From an uncultured virus (IMG/VR IMGVR_UViG_3300044506_000040) (Duplodnaviria; Heunggongvirae; Uroviricota; Caudoviricetes), in the IMG/VR virus record IMGVR_UViG_3300044506_000040: a DNA stretch of 57,570 bases; one strand, 5' to 3'. Positions 9,116 through 52,888 of this stretch are shown here, piece by piece. How positions within the stretch are numbered: position 1 is the stretch's first letter; the number at the start of each line of letters is the position of its first letter. The notes under the pieces are model-generated. The model did not search any database and was not told the DNA's origin. It worked only from the letters and a program-made list of their open reading frames with translations. A program made the position numbers and the translations under genes.

Positions 9116-9392
9116 GAAGGTGCGTGAGCGCAAGGATCGCAACAAGTTCGAACGTTACATGAAGCGCATTCATGGACCGAACTGGCGTTCGAAGTTTGCC
9201 GACCAGAAGGTCATCCCGGTGCCGCATGACTGGCAAGAACGCATTGGTCCGGGCTTGCACTACGTACCGAAGATGCCGGTTGCGCGAGCGCTGACGGTCG
9301 AAGAGATCCGTCTGCAACTCAAGCGCGCCGCAGGTATCACGCCGGGCACGCAGCCGAAGGGTTATACCGAGGGCGTTTCGCCCAACGCATAA
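9102..9392 (+). CDS. basic hypothetical protein
   Basis: GGAG RBS; overlaps upstream gene. Confidence 0.6.
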   Translation: MNRSKKVRERKDRNKFERYMKRIHGPNWRSKFADQKVIPVPHDWQERIGPGLHYVPKMPVARALTVEEIRLQLKRAAGITPGTQPKGYTEGVSPNA

Positions 9393-9636
9393 TGGCCGGC
9401 TACGCTGTCTATCAATGGTGGTGGAGGTACTTCCTCCACCTTCACCTTGACGCCGTCGGACCGAAGTGGGTGTTTCACTACTCGCGTCCGATGTACGTCG
9501 AAGGCATTCCGATGATCCCGGGATGCTAAGTCATTGATAGTAAAGTATTTTTTTACTGCAATGCGTAAGAGTATGTGAGAGAATACACAATGCATGTACG
9601 AGGGACCTTCAGACCCAAACCTCCGACATGCCCACC

Positions 9637-10121
9637 GTTGTGGTAACGCGACGGACGGAAAGTGATCTAAACGCAAGTTGTGTCGATAGTAGAGAGATGA
9701 GTGGGGGAATCGGTATACCCCGGGGATCTTGAGTCTCCCGTATGCGAATCAGCGTCCTCTCAACGGGACTAACGCATGCTGGCTGTCATTGGCCGCGGCC
9801 TCAGGCCAAATGTGAGTTCGATTCTCACCTCAGAAAGCAATGACCGAACACTCTACTTGGATGGGCACTCTGCACTACCTAGTCTAACCGAAAGGAGGAC
9901 GTGGTAGGTCTTGACTCGACAGCACCACCCTAATTGGGCTCCGTTGGCAAATCCACGGGCTTGCGGGTGAAATGAGTCAACCTCTTAATGGACTGGCCGG
10001 CCTAATCACCCGGCATGACGTGATGCGGGCGGCTGCTCTGGGATGTAATTCTCAGGCTGCAAACTGCGTTAGCACACGCTAAACGGTTACAGGACAGAAA
10101 TGTCACGAGGCAAATTGGGCT
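9637..10121 (+). ncRNA. candidate large structured ncRNA with embedded tRNA-like domain
   Basis: ORF-free; helices 9688-94/9851-57, 9911-17/9974-80, 9875-79/9903-07, GNRA hairpins, D-arm and T-arm lookalikes; boundaries approximate. Confidence 0.6.
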
Positions 10122-10137
10122 GTGTTCTTTCACATCT

Positions 10138-10225
10138 GGGGAGGTGCCCGAGAGGCTAAAGGGGGCAGACTGTAAATCTGTTGGGCTTAGGTCCTACATT
10201 GGTTCGAATCCAATCTTCCCCACCA
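10138..10225 (+). tRNA. tRNA-Tyr(GTA)
   Basis: Cloverleaf, long variable arm, CTGTAAA loop, encoded CCA. Confidence 0.95.
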
Positions 10226-10238
10226 GAATTCGTAGTAC

Positions 10239-10314
10239 GGCGATGTAGCTCAGTCGGTAGAGCAGCGGGATCATAATCCGTTGGTCGTCAGTTCGATTCT
10301 GACCATCGCCACCA
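10239..10314 (+). tRNA. tRNA-Met(CAT), elongator type (Ile2 not excluded)
   Basis: GGCGATG/CATCGCC acceptor, CAT anticodon, CCA. Confidence 0.9.
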
Positions 10315-10330
10315 GTCGTCTTTGTAGTTC

Positions 10331-10407
10331 CGGAGTTTAGCGCAGCCCGGTAGCGCACCTGATTTGGGATCAGGGGGTCGTAGGTTCGAATCCTACAATT
10401 CCGACCA
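10331..10407 (+). tRNA. tRNA-Pro(TGG)
   Basis: CGGAGTT acceptor, TTTGGGA loop, CCA. Confidence 0.95.
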
Positions 10408-10425
10408 GTATTTGTTGTGTCAGTG

Positions 10426-10511
10426 GAAGACGTGGCCGAGCGGCTGAAGGCACCAGATTGCAAACCTGGCGGCGAAAGCCCACGTGGGTTCGAATCCCAT
10501 CGTCTTCTCCA
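10426..10511 (+). tRNA. tRNA with GCA (Cys) anticodon and long variable arm
   Basis: GAAGACG/CGTCTTC, U73, TTGCAAA loop, variable arm GGC-GAAA-GCC. Confidence 0.85.
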
Positions 10512-10526
10512 TTGAATTGTTTCAAT

Positions 10527-10604
10527 CCCGCGGTAGCTCAGTCTGGTAGAGCGGCCACCTCGAATGGTGGTGTGTCGTTGGTTCAAATCCAACCCAAGGG
10601 GCCA
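10527..10604 (+). tRNA. aberrant tRNA (8-nt anticodon loop CTCGAATG, two acceptor mismatches)
   Basis: Canonical D and T arms and CCA; identity unresolved. Confidence 0.65.
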
Positions 10605-10628
10605 AGTTTCAACTAGACATGCTTAGGT

Positions 10629-10705
10629 GTGGCCATAGCTCAGATTGGCAGAGCATCGGGATGTGGCCCCGAGGGTCCCGGGTTCGATTCCCGGTGGTCA
10701 CCCCT
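10629..10705 (+). tRNA. tRNA-His(GTG), lacking encoded G-1 and CCA
   Basis: GTGGCCA/TGGTCAC, C73, ATGTGGC loop; ends CCT. Confidence 0.85.
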
Positions 10706-10727
10706 AAGGTGTTTGGTGTTTCACAGT

Positions 10728-10807
10728 GGTGCTGTTCTTCTAGAGGCCTAGGATGCTGGTTCGTGCACGAATCGGAGACAGGGGTTCAAATCCCCTACGG
10801 CGCCCCA
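10728..10807 (+). tRNA. aberrant tRNA: Glu-type body with extended anticodon arm
   Basis: TCTAGAGGCCTAGGA D-arm and AGGGGTTCAAATCCCCT T-arm typical of tRNA-Glu; 20-nt anticodon arm; CCA. Confidence 0.7.
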
Positions 10808-10825
10808 CTTTCTTTTTCCTTCAGT

Positions 10826-10909
10826 GCGGGGCTCCGGTAGGAACTGGGCTATCGTGAATGCATGCATCGATAGTTTGGTGGTGGTTCAAAGCCACTTGCA
10901 GCCCGCTCC
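10826..10909 (+). pseudogene. degenerate tRNA-like remnant
   Basis: T-arm GTGG-TTCAAAG-CCAC, paired ends GCGGG/CCCGC, CTATCG/CGATAG stem; no proper D arm. Confidence 0.4.
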
Positions 10910-10917
10910 CCTTTTCT

Positions 10918-11007
10918 AGAGAGATGTCCGAGCGGTTTAAAGAGTCGCCCTGCTAAGGCGATGTGTGGGCAACTGCACCAAGGGTTCGAATCCCTTTCTC
11001 TCTGCCA
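10918..11007 (+). tRNA. tRNA-Ser(GCT)
   Basis: AGAGAGA/TCTCTCT, long variable arm, G73, CCA. Confidence 0.95.
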
Positions 11008-11012
11008 TATTG

Positions 11013-11043
11013 AGCCAGGCTTCGGCCTGGCTTTTATGCCGTC
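11013..11043 (+). terminator. hairpin + TTATGCCGTC ending the tRNA array
   Basis: AGCCAGGC-TTCG-GCCTGGCT-TTTATGCCGTC. Confidence 0.75.
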
Positions 11044-11067
11044 AATTTTGTGTACAAGGAGAAGACT

Positions 11068-11637
11068 GTGAATAACATCCCGCGATTGTTTCACATCACG
11101 TTTGACGGCCGGCTACCGAAGATGCTCACGCCGCGTAAGCCCGCTGGCAGTGATGACAAAGACCAAGGCATTCTGAAAGAGTTCACGGCACCGCGTGTGT
11201 CGTTTGCGCCGAGTATCTTTCATTGCCTGCAAGCAATCATCCCCAGCGTCTATGAGAAGCTCTTCTCGGACGAGGGACAAAAGAACGGCGTGGACTTCTT
11301 TGTCTACCAGATGAAGCCGGGCCAGAAGGTACGCATCAAGACGCCAATGGAACTCACGAAGGAGCGCCTCGTGTGGGACGCGCACATCACGCATGAGTAC
11401 TGTGTGCTCGATCCGGTGGAGATCGTCCCGCTTGGCAAGATCAACGCTTGGGTGGATAAGATTGATCCGGGCCTGACCATCTACCCGTACAACGATCACT
11501 CGCTGGAGCCGCAGAAGAATAAGCTCTGTGAGGATGCGCGCTTTAAGAAGACGGACCGGGCGCAGGACCTGGTGTTCTTTGGCCAGCAGCATGACAAGGT
11601 GGCCACGGAGTCGTTGCCCGCTTATTTGAAGTGGTGA
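11068..11637 (+). CDS. hypothetical protein, possible ADP-ribosyltransferase-like fold
   Basis: LFHIT...LTPR...PRVSFAPSI...HE pattern; C-terminal PAYLKW. Confidence 0.55.
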   Translation: MNNIPRLFHITFDGRLPKMLTPRKPAGSDDKDQGILKEFTAPRVSFAPSIFHCLQAIIPSVYEKLFSDEGQKNGVDFFVYQMKPGQKVRIKTPMELTKERLVWDAHITHEYCVLDPVEIVPLGKINAWVDKIDPGLTIYPYNDHSLEPQKNKLCEDARFKKTDRAQDLVFFGQQHDKVATESLPAYLKW

Positions 11638-20383: not shown

Positions 20384-20998
20384 ATGGAAGACAACGAGGA
20401 AGAACGCGAAAGTAACCCGACCTATCTGCTGCGCTTTCAAACGCACGATGGTCAGACTTGGTATTACGGCTGTAATTCGGCAGCATCGTACTTCTCGGGT
20501 TTGTTTCCGCCTTCGAGCATTGGTCCTCAACGGCGTGAACAAACCGCCAAGCTCATTGGCATCGTGGACGGCAACATCGTCAATAGTGGACCGCTCCTCT
20601 TTGATGATTACGCCGGTGCCTACGACGTCATGCAGATGTTCCAGGATGCGCCGTACTTTGTCTATGGTCAGATCGAGACCGAGACGGCTGGCATCCAGGA
20701 AGTCAAGGCGAACCTGCTCACGAAGAACGTGAATCCCGTCTTCAACGTCGAGACGGGTGTCGCCAGTGCTTCAGTCGTGAACTTTCACGATGGGGTCTTC
20801 ATCGAACTGTGCGCAACGCGCTATGTGAAGAACCCCGACGCCTGGACCATCAAGCCGCACGAGGACCCCAGGCTTAGTTATGATGTCAAGGTGGCCGAGA
20901 GTTATCTTGTCTACCCGCTCCTGCGTTACCCGCTCACCTATCGGAAGAAAGAAAATGAACCAACCGAACAAACAAAAACAACTGGACAAGATCAGTAA
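20384..20998 (+). CDS. hypothetical protein
   Basis: ORF in operon. Confidence 0.7.
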   Translation: MEDNEEERESNPTYLLRFQTHDGQTWYYGCNSAASYFSGLFPPSSIGPQRREQTAKLIGIVDGNIVNSGPLLFDDYAGAYDVMQMFQDAPYFVYGQIETETAGIQEVKANLLTKNVNPVFNVETGVASASVVNFHDGVFIELCATRYVKNPDAWTIKPHEDPRLSYDVKVAESYLVYPLLRYPLTYRKKENEPTEQTKTTGQDQ

Positions 20999-21548
20999 GT
21001 TCCTCAGCTTCGTGCTGCGCCACAAGCCGGAATCGATCGGGATCATCCTGGACCGTGAAGGCTGGACGGGCATCGATCTGCTGATCAAGCATGCAACGAT
21101 GGCCCCGGACGGCATGACGTTCGATCGCCCGACGCTGCTGGAAGTCGTGGTCACGAACGGCAAGCAGCGTTTCGAGATCTCCTCGGACGGCTCGCGCATT
21201 CGTGCGGTGCAGGGTCACTCGACGACGGAAGTCGATCGCAGCTTTGTCGAGAAGGTCCCGCCGGCAGTGCTCTATCACGGTACGGCCCGCAAGACGATCG
21301 ATCCGATTCTCGACGACGGCCTGTTGCCGATGTCGCGTCAGTACGTGCACCTCTCGGAAGACTACGAGACGGCACTGGAAGTCGGCCAGCGTCACGGCAA
21401 GGCAGTGGTGCTGGAGATCTATGCAGGCGCCATGCACAAGGCTGGTATCAAGTTCTACCAGGCTGAGAACGGCGTGTGGCTTACCGAGAAGGTCGGCCTG
21501 GATCACATCTCGGTTATTCTGAAGCGGCCCGGCAATGCTGCATCGTAG
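20955..21548 (+). CDS. kptA: RNA 2'-phosphotransferase (Tpt1/KptA)
   Basis: ISKFLSFVLRH.P, KQRF, IRAVQGHS, LYHGT, RQYVHLS, NGVWL. Confidence 0.95.
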   Translation: MNQPNKQKQLDKISKFLSFVLRHKPESIGIILDREGWTGIDLLIKHATMAPDGMTFDRPTLLEVVVTNGKQRFEISSDGSRIRAVQGHSTTEVDRSFVEKVPPAVLYHGTARKTIDPILDDGLLPMSRQYVHLSEDYETALEVGQRHGKAVVLEIYAGAMHKAGIKFYQAENGVWLTEKVGLDHISVILKRPGNAAS

Positions 21549-50044: not shown

Positions 50045-51163
50045 TTAGCACATGCCGATGACTTTGAAGAAATTGAGCGCTTCATGTTGCTCATACAGCG
50101 AGATGTTCTCTTCCATCTCGTGGCCGATGTAGAAGAAGCTCGTCGTGATGTGGCGCACCAGATCAGTCATCGGTGCCTTGATCCAGTTCACGTAGTGTTT
50201 GTTCAGGCCCAGAAGCTGCTTGACGGCTTCGGCGCTACCGTCTTGAGCACCGGTGCTCAGCTTCTTGACCATCGTGTCCGTGAGGCGCATCATGCCTTGG
50301 GCGGCCGAGACGAGTTGCTTGTACTCGCCGTTCTTGAAGTTGTCCATCTCGTCGAGCACGCCTTCCATGTTCGCGTAGACCTTGGCGAGGTCCTCGATCG
50401 TCATGGGCGTGAAGAGAATGTCTTGGTGGCCGACTTGCTTCTCGGCGAGCACCAGACGGTGCGCGTCCAGATCGCTGCCACCGCCACCGTACGTCACGCT
50501 CACGTTGCCCAGCATCTCTTGCTGACCGACGTGGAACGCATTGTGTTCCATTTCCTGAACGATGCGCTCGTAGAGGCCGGCAGCGTTTTCCACCGTCGCG
50601 GCTTCCAGCGTCTTGCTGATCTTCACGATCCGCTGATCGACGATGTACTTCGCGTAGTCATCGGTCACCACCGTGACAGCAGCACGCGTGCGCGTGAGGG
50701 CACCCAGGAGCTCTTCAGCGCCCGTGATGGCCTTGCCGCCGATCATGAAGGCTTGCACGTTGGCGTGGGCGATCACGATGTCTTTGTGCGAGTCTTTGAG
50801 CTTTCGGTAGACTTCCGGGTTCGTGCTGAGCGACTTGACCTTCGTCATCATGCGCTTGATGTGCAGACGTCGACGACCGAGCACCGTGAAGTGCGCTTCG
50901 AAGAACGCGACGATCTTTTCCCAGATCTTCTTCAGGAAGGCCAGGAACTGCTGCCAGTACGCCTTGAGGGTCTCCCCCAGGCTTTCGAGTGCGATGCCTT
51001 CCATCGCGACGTTCAGGCCTTGCAGACCGATCAGGTGTTCACGGATCTCGTCGAGCATGCTCACGCTGTCACAGATCGTGTTGTGGTCGAGGATGTAGTG
51101 CTCGATCTCCAGATGGTCTGGATGCTGATCGGCTGGCTGATTCAGGATTTCGATGTCGTCCAT
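50045..51163 (-). CDS. virion internal head protein
   Basis: AMEGIALES followed by WQQFLAFLKKIWEKIVAFF helix. Confidence 0.75.
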   Translation of the reverse strand: MDDIEILNQPADQHPDHLEIEHYILDHNTICDSVSMLDEIREHLIGLQGLNVAMEGIALESLGETLKAYWQQFLAFLKKIWEKIVAFFEAHFTVLGRRRLHIKRMMTKVKSLSTNPEVYRKLKDSHKDIVIAHANVQAFMIGGKAITGAEELLGALTRTRAAVTVVTDDYAKYIVDQRIVKISKTLEAATVENAAGLYERIVQEMEHNAFHVGQQEMLGNVSVTYGGGGSDLDAHRLVLAEKQVGHQDILFTPMTIEDLAKVYANMEGVLDEMDNFKNGEYKQLVSAAQGMMRLTDTMVKKLSTGAQDGSAEAVKQLLGLNKHYVNWIKAPMTDLVRHITTSFFYIGHEMEENISLYEQHEALNFFKVIGMC

Positions 51164-51298
51164 TTTTTGTCTTCCACGGTGGAATAAATATTGCACCAGT
51201 TCAGTACCCGGCATAACAACGGAACCGACCCAAGCCACCCCAGGGATTGCAGGGCGGCCTGGAGTCGATTCCATGAACGAGTACTACTGTTCACATAA

Positions 51299-52888
51299 TT
51301 ACACCGGCGAAAAATCGAAGAACGGCTTCTCATCCTTACTACCGATTGGACCACCGCCGACAGCACGACGCGAGAGATCTTTGCGTCCTTCGTCGAAGGG
51401 AATCCCGTACTTCTCGAACTTGAGGACCGTGTACAGATCCTTGGGGTTCGTCTGACCGATGATCCGGTGCTTACCGCGCTGGCAGGTCAGGAACGACTCG
51501 CCATTGACCTTCTCGATGTGGATGAAGATCTCCAGGTCAACTTCCTGGTCGATCTGCTTACAGCCCCGATAATAGCCCTTGCCGGGCAGTTCCTGCACGA
51601 AGTCCGCTTTACCGTCGCGGATCATCTGCTTGGCGTCCGTCGAGAGCTGGTGCGGCGTCACGAACGCAATCTTCTTAGCGCTCATGAAGTTACGCACTCG
51701 GCGATACATGTCTTGCACGTCGGTGCCCGTCGGTCCTTGTGCGCAACCGGTCGTCGGCAGCATCGGGAGGTAGTCAGCCATGCACATGAAGATCTCGTAA
51801 CCATCGGCTTCGAGTTCGAGCATGCGGTTGCACAGATGCTTGTAGGTCCAGTCCGAAGGATTGACCCGCTCCATGATGACTTCGAAGCCATTGACGCGCA
51901 GACGCTCGGCCACGTACTTCGACATCACCAGCACGAACTCGTCCTTCTCTTCCTGCGTCATGACCTTGAAGTCTTCCTTCGTCTTCACCACGATCTCGTC
52001 GGCACGACCATCGTAGTTCATGATGACTTCGTAGGCGTACTGGAGATTCAGTTCCAGATCGTCTTCGAAGCTAACACGGTAAAGCAAAGGCTTCTTCACG
52101 GGCACAACTTCCGGGAACGCTGTCTCCGGAGTGTTGAAGAGGGCGACGCCAATAAAGGTTCCGAGGGAGAACCCCGTCTTAAAGTTATGCTGGAGCGCAC
52201 CGATCACGGTTTCCTGGCCGCGACGGTAGCCGCCGCGCAGCATGCGGTTAATACCCTGCCAGGGCGTCTTCAGGACGCTGCCACCTTCTTCGGCCTTCTG
52301 CACTTCCTTGAAGACCTTGACGACTTCTTCGATGTGCGCGAAGTTGACGGAGGAGACAATCGCAGGGTCACGCCGTTCGCTGTCAACAGTGAAGGGTTCC
52401 AGGTCCGTCACGAGTTGCGACAGGAACTGCTTCATGTTGACGATCTCGCCACGCTTGAAGCGAATCGCAGTCGAGGCGTTGTTGACGATCTCTTGCGCCT
52501 TCTGTTCTTGCAGCACATCGTGCAGCGAGCGACGCAGGTTGACGGCGGTGCGCTTGATCTTGTTATCTGCGAGCTCTTTGTCGATGCCTTCTTGGAGCGA
52601 ACCAAACAGCGCTTCGTCGGTATTGCAATCCACCTTCAGCTGCTGCAACAGTTCGATCGGCTCGTACTCATGGTCGAGCGGCTGCTCGCACATCGTCAGA
52701 GCGGTCTTCTTCAGACCGGTGATGATATCTCGTTCGTTGTCCAGACCCATCTGTACTTGTGGATCTTTGATCAACCCGAGAATGCTGCGCACCAAAGCGC
52801 TACTGTTCTCGTGACTCCCCAGGAGTTGTGACTCACGATACAACAAGGTGATGCACTTCACCAGGAGGAGCTTGGCATTCGGGTTCAT
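51299..52888 (-). CDS. DnaB-like replicative helicase (phiKZ gp118-like)
   Basis: GGYRRG...GALQHNFKTG, SFED, DY, TPHQLS, DQEVD, RGKHR; divergent from the capsid gene as in phiKZ. Confidence 0.9.
   Translation of the reverse strand: MNPNAKLLLVKCITLLYRESQLLGSHENSSALVRSILGLIKDPQVQMGLDNERDIITGLKKTALTMCEQPLDHEYEPIELLQQLKVDCNTDEALFGSLQEGIDKELADNKIKRTAVNLRRSLHDVLQEQKAQEIVNNASTAIRFKRGEIVNMKQFLSQLVTDLEPFTVDSERRDPAIVSSVNFAHIEEVVKVFKEVQKAEEGGSVLKTPWQGINRMLRGGYRRGQETVIGALQHNFKTGFSLGTFIGVALFNTPETAFPEVVPVKKPLLYRVSFEDDLELNLQYAYEVIMNYDGRADEIVVKTKEDFKVMTQEEKDEFVLVMSKYVAERLRVNGFEVIMERVNPSDWTYKHLCNRMLELEADGYEIFMCMADYLPMLPTTGCAQGPTGTDVQDMYRRVRNFMSAKKIAFVTPHQLSTDAKQMIRDGKADFVQELPGKGYYRGCKQIDQEVDLEIFIHIEKVNGESFLTCQRGKHRIIGQTNPKDLYTVLKFEKYGIPFDEGRKDLSRRAVGGGPIGSKDEKPFFDFSPV

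What the first reader, a model, noticed from the sequence alone, without database searches (positions are those of the whole stretch)
9688..9857. tRNA mimic with ~70-nt expanded variable region and no CCA, embedded in a bigger fold
Seen: Leu-like D arm (TGGGGGAATCGGTATACCCC), anticodon-like hairpin (GGGA-TCTTGAGTC-TCCC) and perfect T arm (GTGAG-TTCGATT-CTCAC). The variable region carries two extra hairpins (ATGCG/CGCAT with GTCC/GGAC; TTGGCC/GGCCAA). The acceptor has only 4 bp (TGAG/CTCA) and continues into an outer helix instead of NCCA. GTCATTG 9785-91 can pair with CAATGAC 9838-44 (pseudoknot or alternative fold). Inference: an elbow mimic that could decoy anticodon nucleases, synthetases or RNase P, rather than a decoding tRNA.
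Basis: partly seen in the sequence, partly recalled or inferred. Interest (0 to 1): 0.7.

Follow-up and report, generated by a model that had tools for sequence, protein, structure and literature searches.

The report
Sealed tRNA-Leu look-alike RNA of phages
Large phages carry a conserved RNA that keeps the folded body of a leucine tRNA but has no anticodon and no free acceptor end, so it most likely imitates a tRNA rather than decodes; its target is still unknown.

Summary
Window 9688-9857 (+) is one copy of a conserved, phage-restricted non-coding RNA family that ARAGORN and Rfam 15 do not recognise. I found at least 17 distinct members, one strong copy per genome. Carriers include the cultured jumbo phages RTH11, LucasX, RP12 and RP31.

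The family keeps the core of a class II tRNA-Leu:
- U8, the 3-bp D stem with the tRNA-Leu D loop, the variable-arm hairpin, U48 and the T arm.
- Only 3-4 acceptor pairs (GAG/CUC).

It lacks a conserved anticodon loop and a CCA end. The 3' strand runs through a purine linker into a 7-bp helix (9785-9791 with 9838-9844). With a flanking 4-bp stem, this helix forms a classical H-type pseudoknot. An outer helix closes both ends.

On 17 sequences, 96.4% of pair cells are standard pairs and 14 of 22 pairs show compensatory changes (0 of 500 shuffles reach this).

The RNA has no conserved protein neighbour. It persists far from tRNA genes, and in one complete 223-kb phage genome with no tRNA gene at all.

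Best reading (about 0.4): a trans-acting, non-reactive mimic of the tRNA body. Its function is inferred, not shown. I class it as a new variant of a known kind (tRNA mimics).

The parts
9688..9694 (+). Outer closing helix, 5' strand (AGTAGAG)
   Evidence: It pairs with 9851-9857. At this position 8 of 14 members have helices of 9 bp or more with different sequences (9-15 bp), none matched by any of 300 shuffles. The window's own 7 bp is weak alone, matched by 36 of 300 shuffles.
9698..9701 (+). Acceptor remnant, 5' strand (U-GAG)
   Evidence: GAG is invariant in 17 of 17 members and always opposite CUC, so there is no covariation. The fourth pair, U-A, exists only in some members.
9702..9720 (+). 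U8, G9 and the tRNA-Leu-type D arm (3-bp stem, 11-nt loop holding G18 G19)
   Evidence: The loop nucleotides are invariant. The middle stem pair covaries: GC 8, CG 4, UA 4, UG 1. The same 5' motif is carried by ordinary phage tRNA-Leu genes.
9722..9738 (+). Hairpin 1, remnant of the anticodon arm (GGGGA, loop UCUUGAG, UCUCC)
   Evidence: A close soil relative has 9726 A>G with 9734 T>C (A-U to G-C) and a loop change at 9730, from one contig at depth 3.1. The loop length and sequence are not conserved in the family.
9742..9777 (+). Hairpin 2, branched (ATGCG/CGCAT enclosing GTCC/GGAC)
   Evidence: The sequence allows it. Member L252 has the same layout. Six members have a simple hairpin here with loop AAUUGA, AAUUAA or AAUCGA. 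I did not test it statistically.
9780..9795 (+). Pseudoknot hairpin: stem S1 (UGGC 9780-9783 with GCCG 9792-9795), loop of one U plus B5 (GUCAUUG 9785-9791)
   Evidence: S1 is 95.5% paired and 2 of its 4 pairs change on both sides. S1 was not part of the covariance model.
9797..9811 (+). Hairpin 3 (GGCC UCA GGCC), the tRNA-Leu variable arm, then AAAU ending in U48
   Evidence: It is conserved as GGCC-UUA-GGCC in RTH11 and LucasX and as GGUC-UCA-GACC in RP12 and L004; it is absent in L005. The U before the T stem is kept in 16 of 17 members.
9812..9828 (+). T arm (GUGAG UUCGAUU CUCAC)
   Evidence: 100% paired, and 3 of its 5 pairs change on both sides. The T-loop letters G53 U54 U55 C56 A58 are invariant.
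9829..9837 (+). Acceptor remnant 3' strand (CUCA) and the purine linker GAAAG
   Evidence: CUC, and the G and two A of the linker, are invariant in 14 sequences, but part of this stretch was fixed by the search patterns. Linker variants are AGAAAG, AGAGAG, AGAGAA, UGAAAG, GGAAAG, GGAGAG and AGAGUG.
9838..9844 (+). Pseudoknot strand B3 (CAAUGAC), pairs with 9785-9791
   Evidence: All 7 pairs change on both sides. Paired cells are 91.2% on the MAFFT alignment and 92.9% on 17 sequences.
9845..9857 (+). Linker CGAACA and the 3' strand of the outer helix (CUCUACU)
   Evidence: Position 9847 is A>T in G001 and in two soil contigs, in the unpaired linker.

Best explanation
Window 9688-9857 encodes a stand-alone, non-decoding RNA that descends from a class II tRNA-Leu gene.

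Shown:
- The RNA keeps what builds the tRNA core and elbow: U8, the D arm with G18 G19, U48, the T arm, the variable-arm hairpin and three acceptor pairs.
- The anticodon loop is free to decay.
- The 3' strand is tied back by an H-type pseudoknot. The order is S1, one U, B5, S1, then a long loop holding the variable arm, the T arm, CUC and a purine linker, then B3.
- An outer helix closes both termini.

Inferred:
- The RNA is made as a stable 130-230 nt species. In tRNA arrays it is freed by the processing of its tRNA neighbours.
- It acts in trans as an inert copy of the tRNA body. It would occupy a host or phage factor that reads the tRNA elbow and class II core, such as a tRNA-directed nuclease or modifying toxin, RNase P, LeuRS or a tRNA-modifying enzyme.
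- It offers nothing to charge, decode or cut at the usual sites.

My confidence that it is a genuine structured RNA family is about 0.9. My confidence in this mode of action is about 0.4.
For: Structure:
- On the MAFFT alignment of 14 members, 96.3% of cells are paired and 11 of 18 pairs change on both sides. No shuffle of 500 reaches this, and slid controls give 35-49% paired.
- On 17 members the figures are 96.4% and 14 of 22 pairs. This includes stem S1, which was not in the model.
- A microvariant gives a compensatory change in hairpin 1.

A discrete family:
- The covariance model scores members at 77-137 bits.
- Ordinary or long-insert phage tRNA-Leu genes score at most 56.8 bits. Of 94 loci with the tRNA-Leu 5' motif, 11 score 94 bits or more and the rest 56.8 or less.

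Autonomy:
- All 14 records examined hold one strong copy.
- Thirteen loci, each about +/-8 kb around the element, share no protein neighbour apart from near-identical relatives.
- The 99-aa upstream ORFs are not homologous.
- Complete genome G006 (222,670 bp) holds the RNA but gives no RF00005 hit. RP12 (G003) and G002 keep their 2-3 tRNAs more than 100 kb away.

Phage restriction: of 80 pattern hits scanned from 185,579 species genomes, one is a member. It lies on a 286-kb Paraburkholderia contig and scores the same as viral contig L252.

Not decoding:
- ARAGORN and Rfam tRNA find nothing at the element.
- The hairpin 1 loop is 3 nt (CGC) in L003 and L096.
Against: - No expression data: no RNA run holds the stretch, so the transcript and its ends are not shown.
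- No binding partner is identified, and no co-occurring protein was found. TROVE appears in 2 of 10 genomes, one of them weak and broken, the other 58 kb away. Tpt1 appears in 1 of 5.
- The GAG/CUC pairs never vary, so that helix rests on analogy with tRNA.
- The window's own outer helix is weak when taken alone.
- Single-sequence folding is unremarkable.
- Members were found with patterns that fix parts of the D loop, the T loop and CCUC..GA.AG, so the invariance there is partly by construction.
- Alignment A3 was fitted to the model and therefore leans towards D, B and T.
- Six of 13 loci sit within 25 nt of a same-strand tRNA, and the window's copy is 280 nt upstream of one. That also fits a cis-processing role.
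Confidence: 0.4

Rival explanations
1. It is a cis-acting processing or stability mark. On this reading the tRNA-shaped fold recruits RNase P, RNase Z or RNase E to cut the phage transcript, as do plant-mitochondrial t-elements or mascRNA. The pseudoknot and outer helix would then protect the new ends.
For: - Six of 13 loci have a same-strand tRNA 0-22 nt away. L059 abuts tRNA-Gly, L005 lies 3 nt after tRNA-Leu and 10 nt before tRNA-Thr, and L003 has tRNAs on both sides.
- The window's copy heads a 7-tRNA array.
- Earlier notes of this scan read other anticodon-less phage tRNA mimics this way (unchecked leads).
Against: - The acceptor has only 3-4 pairs. It has no free 5' or 3' junction and no RCCA, and the strands run on into a pseudoknot and a closing helix.
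- No gene or tRNA is consistently next to it.
- It is kept in a complete genome without tRNA genes, and more than 100 kb from the tRNAs of RP12 (G003) and G002.
Confidence: 0.2
2. It is a tRNA scaffold. The conserved tRNA-like frame only stabilises the RNA, and the working part is the variable insert (hairpins 1 and 2), acting as a lineage-specific antisense RNA or aptamer.
For: - The insert between the D arm and the pseudoknot ranges from about 35 nt (L005) to about 125 nt (L004).
- Six members share a hairpin 2 loop of AAUUGA, AAUUAA or AAUCGA.
Against: - The insert is the least conserved part and changes by whole-hairpin indels even among close relatives (L003 against L059 and L078).
- Selection is visibly strongest on the pseudoknot, the linker and the tRNA core.
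Confidence: 0.12
3. It is the RNA part of a known tRNA-like RNP, that is, a Y RNA (YrlA) bound by Rsr/Ro, or a tmRNA relative.
For: - Like YrlA, it joins a tRNA-like domain to a closing stem (abstract of PMC4201824).
- A partial YrlA match of 22.3 bits overlaps the T-arm side of L096.
Against: - No Rfam YrlA or tmRNA match at the window's element, and no tmRNA call by ARAGORN.
- In the YrlA model the T arm precedes the D arm (alignment). Here the order is that of a tRNA.
- TROVE appears in only 2 of 10 carrier genomes. One hit is weak with 3 stops, the other is 58 kb from the element.
- There is no tag reading frame and no CCA.
Confidence: 0.05
4. It is the precursor of a decoding tRNA-Leu that becomes functional after removal of the 70-nt insert, or it is simply a decaying tRNA-Leu pseudogene.
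For: - The 5' motif is that of phage tRNA-Leu genes.
- The letter that would be position 73 is always A. That A73 is the tRNA-Leu discriminator is recalled knowledge, not from a call.
- The window's hairpin 1 has a 7-nt loop.
Against: - Removing 9741-9810 does not rebuild a 7-bp acceptor.
- L003 and L096 have a 3-nt loop in hairpin 1.
- A pseudogene would not keep 14 of 22 pairs through compensatory change across phages that share no neighbouring genes.
- A pseudogene would not stay single-copy in 14 of 14 records.
Confidence: 0.04

Closest known systems
Class II tRNA-Leu (Rfam RF00005), especially phage tRNA-Leu(UAA) genes
   Same: - 5' motif GAG-U-G, then a 3-bp D stem and an 11-nt D loop with G18 G19.
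- A variable-arm hairpin, U48 and a 5-bp T stem with the GUUCGAnUC loop.
- An A at the discriminator position.
It is clearly the ancestor.
   Different: - No 7-bp acceptor, no CCA and no conserved anticodon loop.
- About 35-125 extra nt between the D arm and the variable arm.
- The 3' strand folds into an H-type pseudoknot and the ends are closed by a helix.
- It is not found by ARAGORN or the Rfam tRNA model.
YrlA, the tRNA-like bacterial and phage Y RNA (Rfam RF02553; Chen et al. 2014, PMC4201824, abstract and outline seen)
   Same: A non-decoding RNA with a tRNA-like domain and paired termini. It is also found in phages and mimics tRNA for tRNA-recognising enzymes.
   Different: - YrlA is circularly permuted relative to tRNA: in the model the T arm comes before the D arm.
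- Its closing stem takes the place of the anticodon stem and binds Rsr.
- Here the order is that of a tRNA and the closing stem extends from the acceptor side.
- Rsr (TROVE) is absent from 8 of 10 carrier genomes.
Plant-virus 3' tRNA-like structures (TYMV type, TLS-His; PMC8127992 seen in a search listing only; the TYMV anatomy is recalled)
   Same: tRNA mimicry in which the strand 3' of the T arm takes part in a pseudoknot.
   Different: Those elements sit at the 3' end of an RNA genome, end in CCA and are aminoacylated. This one is an internal gene of a DNA phage with both ends sealed.
t-elements and mascRNA-type tRNA-like processing signals (PMC1920247 and PMC8457004 seen in search listings)
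   Same: A tRNA-shaped fold without decoding function, embedded in longer transcripts. The MALAT1 case also has a leader-trailer pairing.
   Different: Those have an acceptor-like stem that RNase P and RNase Z cut. This family has 3-4 acceptor pairs and no accessible junction.
Phage T4 small RNAs RNAC and RNAD from the tRNA region (PMC3014915, one passage read: 'their biological roles are unknown')
   Same: Stable non-tRNA RNAs encoded among phage tRNA genes, with unknown role.
   Different: I made no sequence or structure comparison, because the T4 sequences were not fetched. Any structural likeness is recalled, not tested.

Membership tests
tRNA (RF00005) | Detected by the family model (29 bits or more) or by ARAGORN | tested here: not met
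   No hit at 9688-9857 at the gathering threshold or at E<=10. ARAGORN lists only the 7 downstream tRNAs. In 10 member loci no tRNA hit falls on the element.
tRNA (RF00005) | 7-bp acceptor stem with a free 3' end (discriminator plus CCA, encoded or addable) | tested here: not met
   Only GAG/CUC, plus U-A in some members, can pair. The 3' strand continues into the linker, the pseudoknot and the outer helix.
tRNA (RF00005) | 7-nt anticodon loop with U33 | tested here: not met
   The hairpin 1 loop is UCUUGAG in the window (C at the place of U33), CGC in L003 and L096, and branched in L059 and L078.
tRNA (RF00005) | Core and elbow nucleotides (U8, G18 G19, U48, U54 U55 C56, A58) | tested here: met
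   These are invariant columns in 14 sequences. U48 is kept in 16 of 17.
tmRNA | Detected by ARAGORN or the Rfam tmRNA models; acceptor with CCA; tag reading frame | tested here: not met
   ARAGORN gives no tmRNA. Rfam gives none at the element. The only trace is a 13.6-bit T-loop match in L145 at E=0.79.
YrlA / bacterial Y RNA (RF02553) | Model score of 69 bits or more and the permuted order (T arm before D arm) | tested here: not met
   No YrlA hit on the window's element. The best hit on a member is a partial 22.3 bits. The order here is D arm, then T arm.
YrlA / bacterial Y RNA (RF02553) | Encoded with an Rsr/Ro60 (TROVE) gene | tested here: not met
   TROVE hits in 2 of 10 carrier genomes. 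G005 has 25 bits with 3 stops. G008 has an intact gene 58 kb from the element.
t-element / mascRNA-type processing signal | Acceptor-like stem whose 5' and 3' junctions are cut by RNase P and RNase Z | not testable with these tools
   The anatomy argues against it (3-4 pairs, sealed ends), but no cleavage assay or RNA-end data were available. There is no RF01684 hit at the element.
H-type pseudoknot (structural class) | Stem 1, a short loop 1, stem 2 formed by the hairpin loop with a downstream strand, no loop 2, and a loop 3 that crosses stem 1 | tested here: met
   S1 is 4 bp and 95.5% paired. One U follows, then B5 of 7 nt, with S1b directly after it. B3 lies downstream, and all 7 B pairs covary. 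The three-dimensional stacking is inferred.

The most novel reading that the evidence does not exclude
Large phages use an end-sealed copy of the tRNA-Leu body as an RNA effector. On this reading the RNA binds and blocks a host factor that recognises the elbow and core of class II tRNAs. Candidates are a tRNA-cleaving or tRNA-modifying immune effector, RNase P or LeuRS. That would make it an RNA-only anti-defence or host-takeover factor, kept even by phages that carry no tRNA genes.
Probability: 0.25. Interest if true: 0.85.

Novelty: new variant of a known kind. Interest (0 to 1): 0.62.

Why it matters
- tRNA mimicry is well known in RNA viruses and in bacterial Y RNAs. Non-decoding tRNA look-alikes of DNA phages are barely described.
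- This family gives a precise, testable example: a tRNA core welded to an H-type pseudoknot with both functional ends removed.
- It is single-copy, phage-restricted, and present but unannotated in four cultured jumbo phages.
- Being kept by a complete phage genome that has no tRNA genes argues that the tRNA shape itself is the selected product.
- Finding its partner could reveal a new layer of the phage-host conflict over tRNAs.
- The fold is also of interest to RNA structural biology, and genome annotation pipelines currently miss it.

Tried and rejected
- **Single-sequence folding.** It gives no signal (z -0.82).
- **BLAST against cultured phages.** The L003 and L096 elements found nothing.
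- **Conserved neighbours.** None across 13 loci. The 99-aa ORFs just upstream in RTH11, LucasX and RP12 are alike only between RTH11 and LucasX (53%).
- **Co-occurrence.** No link with Rsr/TROVE or Tpt1.
- **Promoter and terminator consensus scan of 9300-11300.** It found one promoter-like and one terminator-like site, both on the - strand near 11,045-11,100. That is no more than in shuffles, and none is by the element.
- **Expression.** No RNA holder is listed for window 9300-10700. The four runs I laid are DNA contigs, and X5 gave no cover.
- **Model jumbo phages.** phiKZ scores 26.5 bits (two adjacent tRNAs). XacN1 scores 32.4 bits (a long-insert tRNA-like gene with a full acceptor). 201phi2-1 and EL give no match. 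None is a member.
- **Earlier findings of this scan.** Nothing by place or by sequence.
- **Literature.** Five searches found no description of this RNA. PMC10690425 predicts 10,006 unnamed viral structured RNAs from IMG/VR. I saw passages only, not its supplementary models, so this motif may be among them.
- **Readings considered and dropped.**
  - Hammerhead: the window's GAUGAG is CGAG in other members.
  - K-turn or tandem G-A at the acceptor top: not conserved.
  - Group I intron: the insert is too short and has no conserved core.
  - attP fragment: both halves of the fold covary.

Full report
**What is in the window**

The window is DNA of a phiKZ-like jumbo phage. It holds a phiKZ internal head protein domain at 50045-51274 (-) and a divergent DnaB-like ATPase at 51299-52888 (-). 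The nearest held record, G001 (323,678 bp), is 99% identical over 9530-10140.

Positions 9530-11050 hold no convincing ORF. They hold 7 tRNA genes from 10138 to 11007. The finding lies 280 nt upstream of the first of these, on the same strand.

ARAGORN, Rfam at gathering thresholds and Rfam at E<=10 report nothing inside 9689-9857. A chance-level c-di-GMP-I-UAU match (9622-9688, E=0.9) touches only the first base. The minimum-energy fold is unremarkable: z = -0.82, with 35 of 200 shuffles folding as well. Taken alone, the sequence would not stand out.

**Relatives**

A BLAST search against cultured phages found one 87-nt match in Xanthomonas phage RTH11, in an unannotated gap. Reading it showed the same 5' and 3' halves, with different but complementary T-stem and outer-helix sequences.

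I then ran pattern scans of IMG/VR:
- The 3' motif gave 5 loci.
- The tRNA-Leu-type 5' motif gave 94 loci.
- A tighter 3' motif gave 16 loci.

Filtering these in a script gave 14 distinct members, and the covariance model added two more. LucasX brought the total to 17 sequences. RP12 is the same record as viral contig L007, and RP31 matches as well.

Most of the 94 loci with the 5' motif are ordinary phage tRNA-Leu genes. The covariance model R1 separates the two groups cleanly: 11 of the 94 loci score 94-137 bits and all the others score 56.8 or less. All 14 carrier records have one strong copy (92.7-136.8 bits), and the further matches are T arms of tRNAs.

Of 83 pattern hits in one genome each of 185,579 bacterial and archaeal species, 80 were scanned. 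One is a member, on a 286-kb Paraburkholderia contig, with the same score as viral contig L252. phiKZ, 201phi2-1, EL and XacN1 have no member.

**Anatomy, in window coordinates**

| Part | Coordinates | Sequence or note |
|---|---|---|
| Outer helix O | 9688-9694 with 9851-9857 | closes both ends |
| Unpaired | 9695-9697 | three nt |
| Acceptor remnant | 9698-9701 with 9829-9832 | UGAG / CUCA |
| U8 G9 | 9702-9703 | |
| D arm | 9704-9720 | 3-bp stem, 11-nt loop |
| Hairpin 1 | 9722-9738 | remnant of the anticodon arm |
| Hairpin 2 | 9742-9777 | branched |
| Stem S1 | 9780-9783 with 9792-9795 | its loop is U9784 plus B5 |
| B5 | 9785-9791 | pairs with B3 |
| Hairpin 3 | 9797-9807 | the tRNA-Leu variable arm |
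| U48 | 9811 | |
| T arm | 9812-9828 | |
| Linker | 9833-9837 | GAAAG |
| B3 | 9838-9844 | pairs with B5 |
| Linker | 9845-9850 | CGAACA |

B crosses the acceptor remnant, so the fold is pseudoknotted. S1, one U, B5, S1 with no spacer, a long loop and then B3 is the layout of a classical H-type pseudoknot. I infer that the purine linker lies along S1, as loop 3 does in such knots. That step is not tested.

**Evidence for the pairs**

- On the MAFFT alignment of 14 sequences (mean column identity 46%), the helices A, D, B and T give 96.3% paired cells. Eleven of 18 pairs change on both sides. No shuffle of 500 reaches any measure, and sliding the partners gives 35-49% paired.
- Within that alignment, B has 7 of 7 covarying pairs, T has 3 of 5, and the middle pair of D covaries.
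- On 17 sequences aligned to the model, with S1 added, 96.4% of cells are paired and 14 of 22 pairs change on both sides, again with 0 of 500 shuffles. S1 was not in the model; it is 95.5% paired, with 2 of 4 pairs changed on both sides.
- GAG/CUC never varies in 17 of 17 sequences. That helix therefore rests only on its tRNA-like position.
- The outer helix cannot be aligned by column. Eight of 14 members have 9-15 bp there that no shuffle of 300 reaches, each with a different sequence apart from close relatives. The window (7 bp, 36 of 300), L005 (21 of 300), L004 and L072 are not significant alone.
- A soil-metagenome relative carries 9726 A>G together with 9734 T>C, which turns an A-U pair of hairpin 1 into G-C. 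It also has a loop change at 9730. This comes from one contig at depth 3.1 and so needs care.

**Caveats**

- The scans fixed parts of the D loop, the T loop and CCUC..GA.AG, so invariance there is partly by construction. However, the 5'-motif scan did not fix the 3' half, nor the reverse.
- Alignment A3 leans towards the model's helices.

**Why it is not a tRNA, tmRNA or Y RNA**

The acceptor has 3-4 pairs and no free end. The hairpin 1 loop ranges from 3 nt to branched inserts. No Rfam family matches the element in the window or in 10 other member loci.

In the YrlA model the T arm precedes the D arm, whereas here the order is that of a tRNA. TROVE genes occur in only 2 of 10 carrier genomes. 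One hit is weak and broken, and the other is 58 kb away.

**Context**

- Six of 13 loci have a same-strand tRNA 0-22 nt away: L003, L005, L013, L059, L078 and L145. The window's copy heads a tRNA array.
- Six of 13 loci have no tRNA within their 450-600 nt flanks.
- No protein is shared by the neighbourhoods beyond close relatives.
- Complete genome G006 has the RNA but no RF00005 hit. RP12 (G003) has 2 tRNAs 117 kb away, and G002 has 3 tRNAs more than 150 kb away.

The RNA is therefore an autonomous gene. It often travels with tRNA genes but does not depend on them.

**How it most likely works**

Shown: selection keeps the tRNA core and elbow, the pseudoknot and the closed ends. It does not keep an anticodon loop or an acceptor end.

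Inferred: a stable RNA of 130-230 nt that presents the tRNA-Leu body while offering nothing to charge, decode or cut. It would act in trans by occupying a reader of that body. I give this about 0.4.

The rivals are:
- a cis processing or stability mark (0.2);
- a tRNA scaffold that displays the variable hairpins (0.12);
- a Y-RNA-like or tmRNA-like RNP component (0.05);
- a spliced tRNA precursor or a pseudogene (0.04).

**Comparison with what is known, and novelty**

The ancestor is a class II tRNA-Leu. The nearest functional analogues are these:
- YrlA (PMC4201824, abstract seen);
- t-elements and mascRNA (search listings only);
- plant-virus tRNA-like structures (search listing and recall);
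- the unexplained T4 RNAs RNAC and RNAD (PMC3014915, one passage read).

Five literature searches found no description of this family. PMC10690425 lists 10,006 unnamed candidate viral RNAs, and I could not see its supplementary models, so it may include this motif.

Earlier notes of this scan describe other anticodon-less tRNA mimics in phages, none of them this family. They are unchecked leads.

I rate it a new variant of a known kind.

Noticed in passing
window 10527-10604 (+): ARAGORN calls a tRNA of unknown identity with a 4-letter anticodon (cgaa) in an 8-nt loop. Rfam tRNA scores it 44.2 bits with two mismatched acceptor pairs. It could be a quadruplet-reading or another non-standard tRNA.
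   Followed up: partly
window 10727-10808 (+): Between tRNA-His and tRNA-Ser lies a cloverleaf with an 8-bp acceptor, a T arm with loop UUCAAAU, and a long stem closed by a 4-nt loop where the anticodon arm should be. Its fold z-score is -2.21, and there is a weak tRNA-Sec-like hit of 23.2 bits. It looks like a second, different anticodon-less tRNA mimic in the same array.
   Followed up: partly
window 10826-10912 (+): A further stretch has a T-arm-like hairpin and complementary ends. Its fold is not significant (z -1.04).
   Followed up: partly
window 20880-21548 (+): This ORF encodes an RNA 2'-phosphotransferase of the Tpt1/KptA family (E 1.1e-46). It is present in 1 of 5 carrier genomes tested, so it is not linked to the RNA.
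   Followed up: partly
L015, L017/L020/L080, L065, L070, L088, L090, L030, L046 (viral contigs); XacN1 AP018399.1 37058-37237: These are phage genes with the tRNA-Leu 5' half, a full 7-bp acceptor (some with ACCA) and a T arm. They have 70-110 nt in between and no normal anticodon loop. They score 23-57 bits with the family model, so they form a different class of odd tRNA-Leu derivatives.
   Followed up: no
G005:C1:190175-190561: A weak TROVE (Ro60-like) match of 25 bits, interrupted by 3 stop codons, lies 3.3 kb from that phage's copy of the RNA.
   Followed up: partly
window 9860-10137 (+): The 280-nt gap between the element and tRNA-Tyr has no ORF of 40 aa or more on the + strand; one 43-aa ORF lies on the - strand at 10002-10133. 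It folds only slightly better than shuffles (z -1.5 and -1.7). I did not compare it with relatives.
   Followed up: partly
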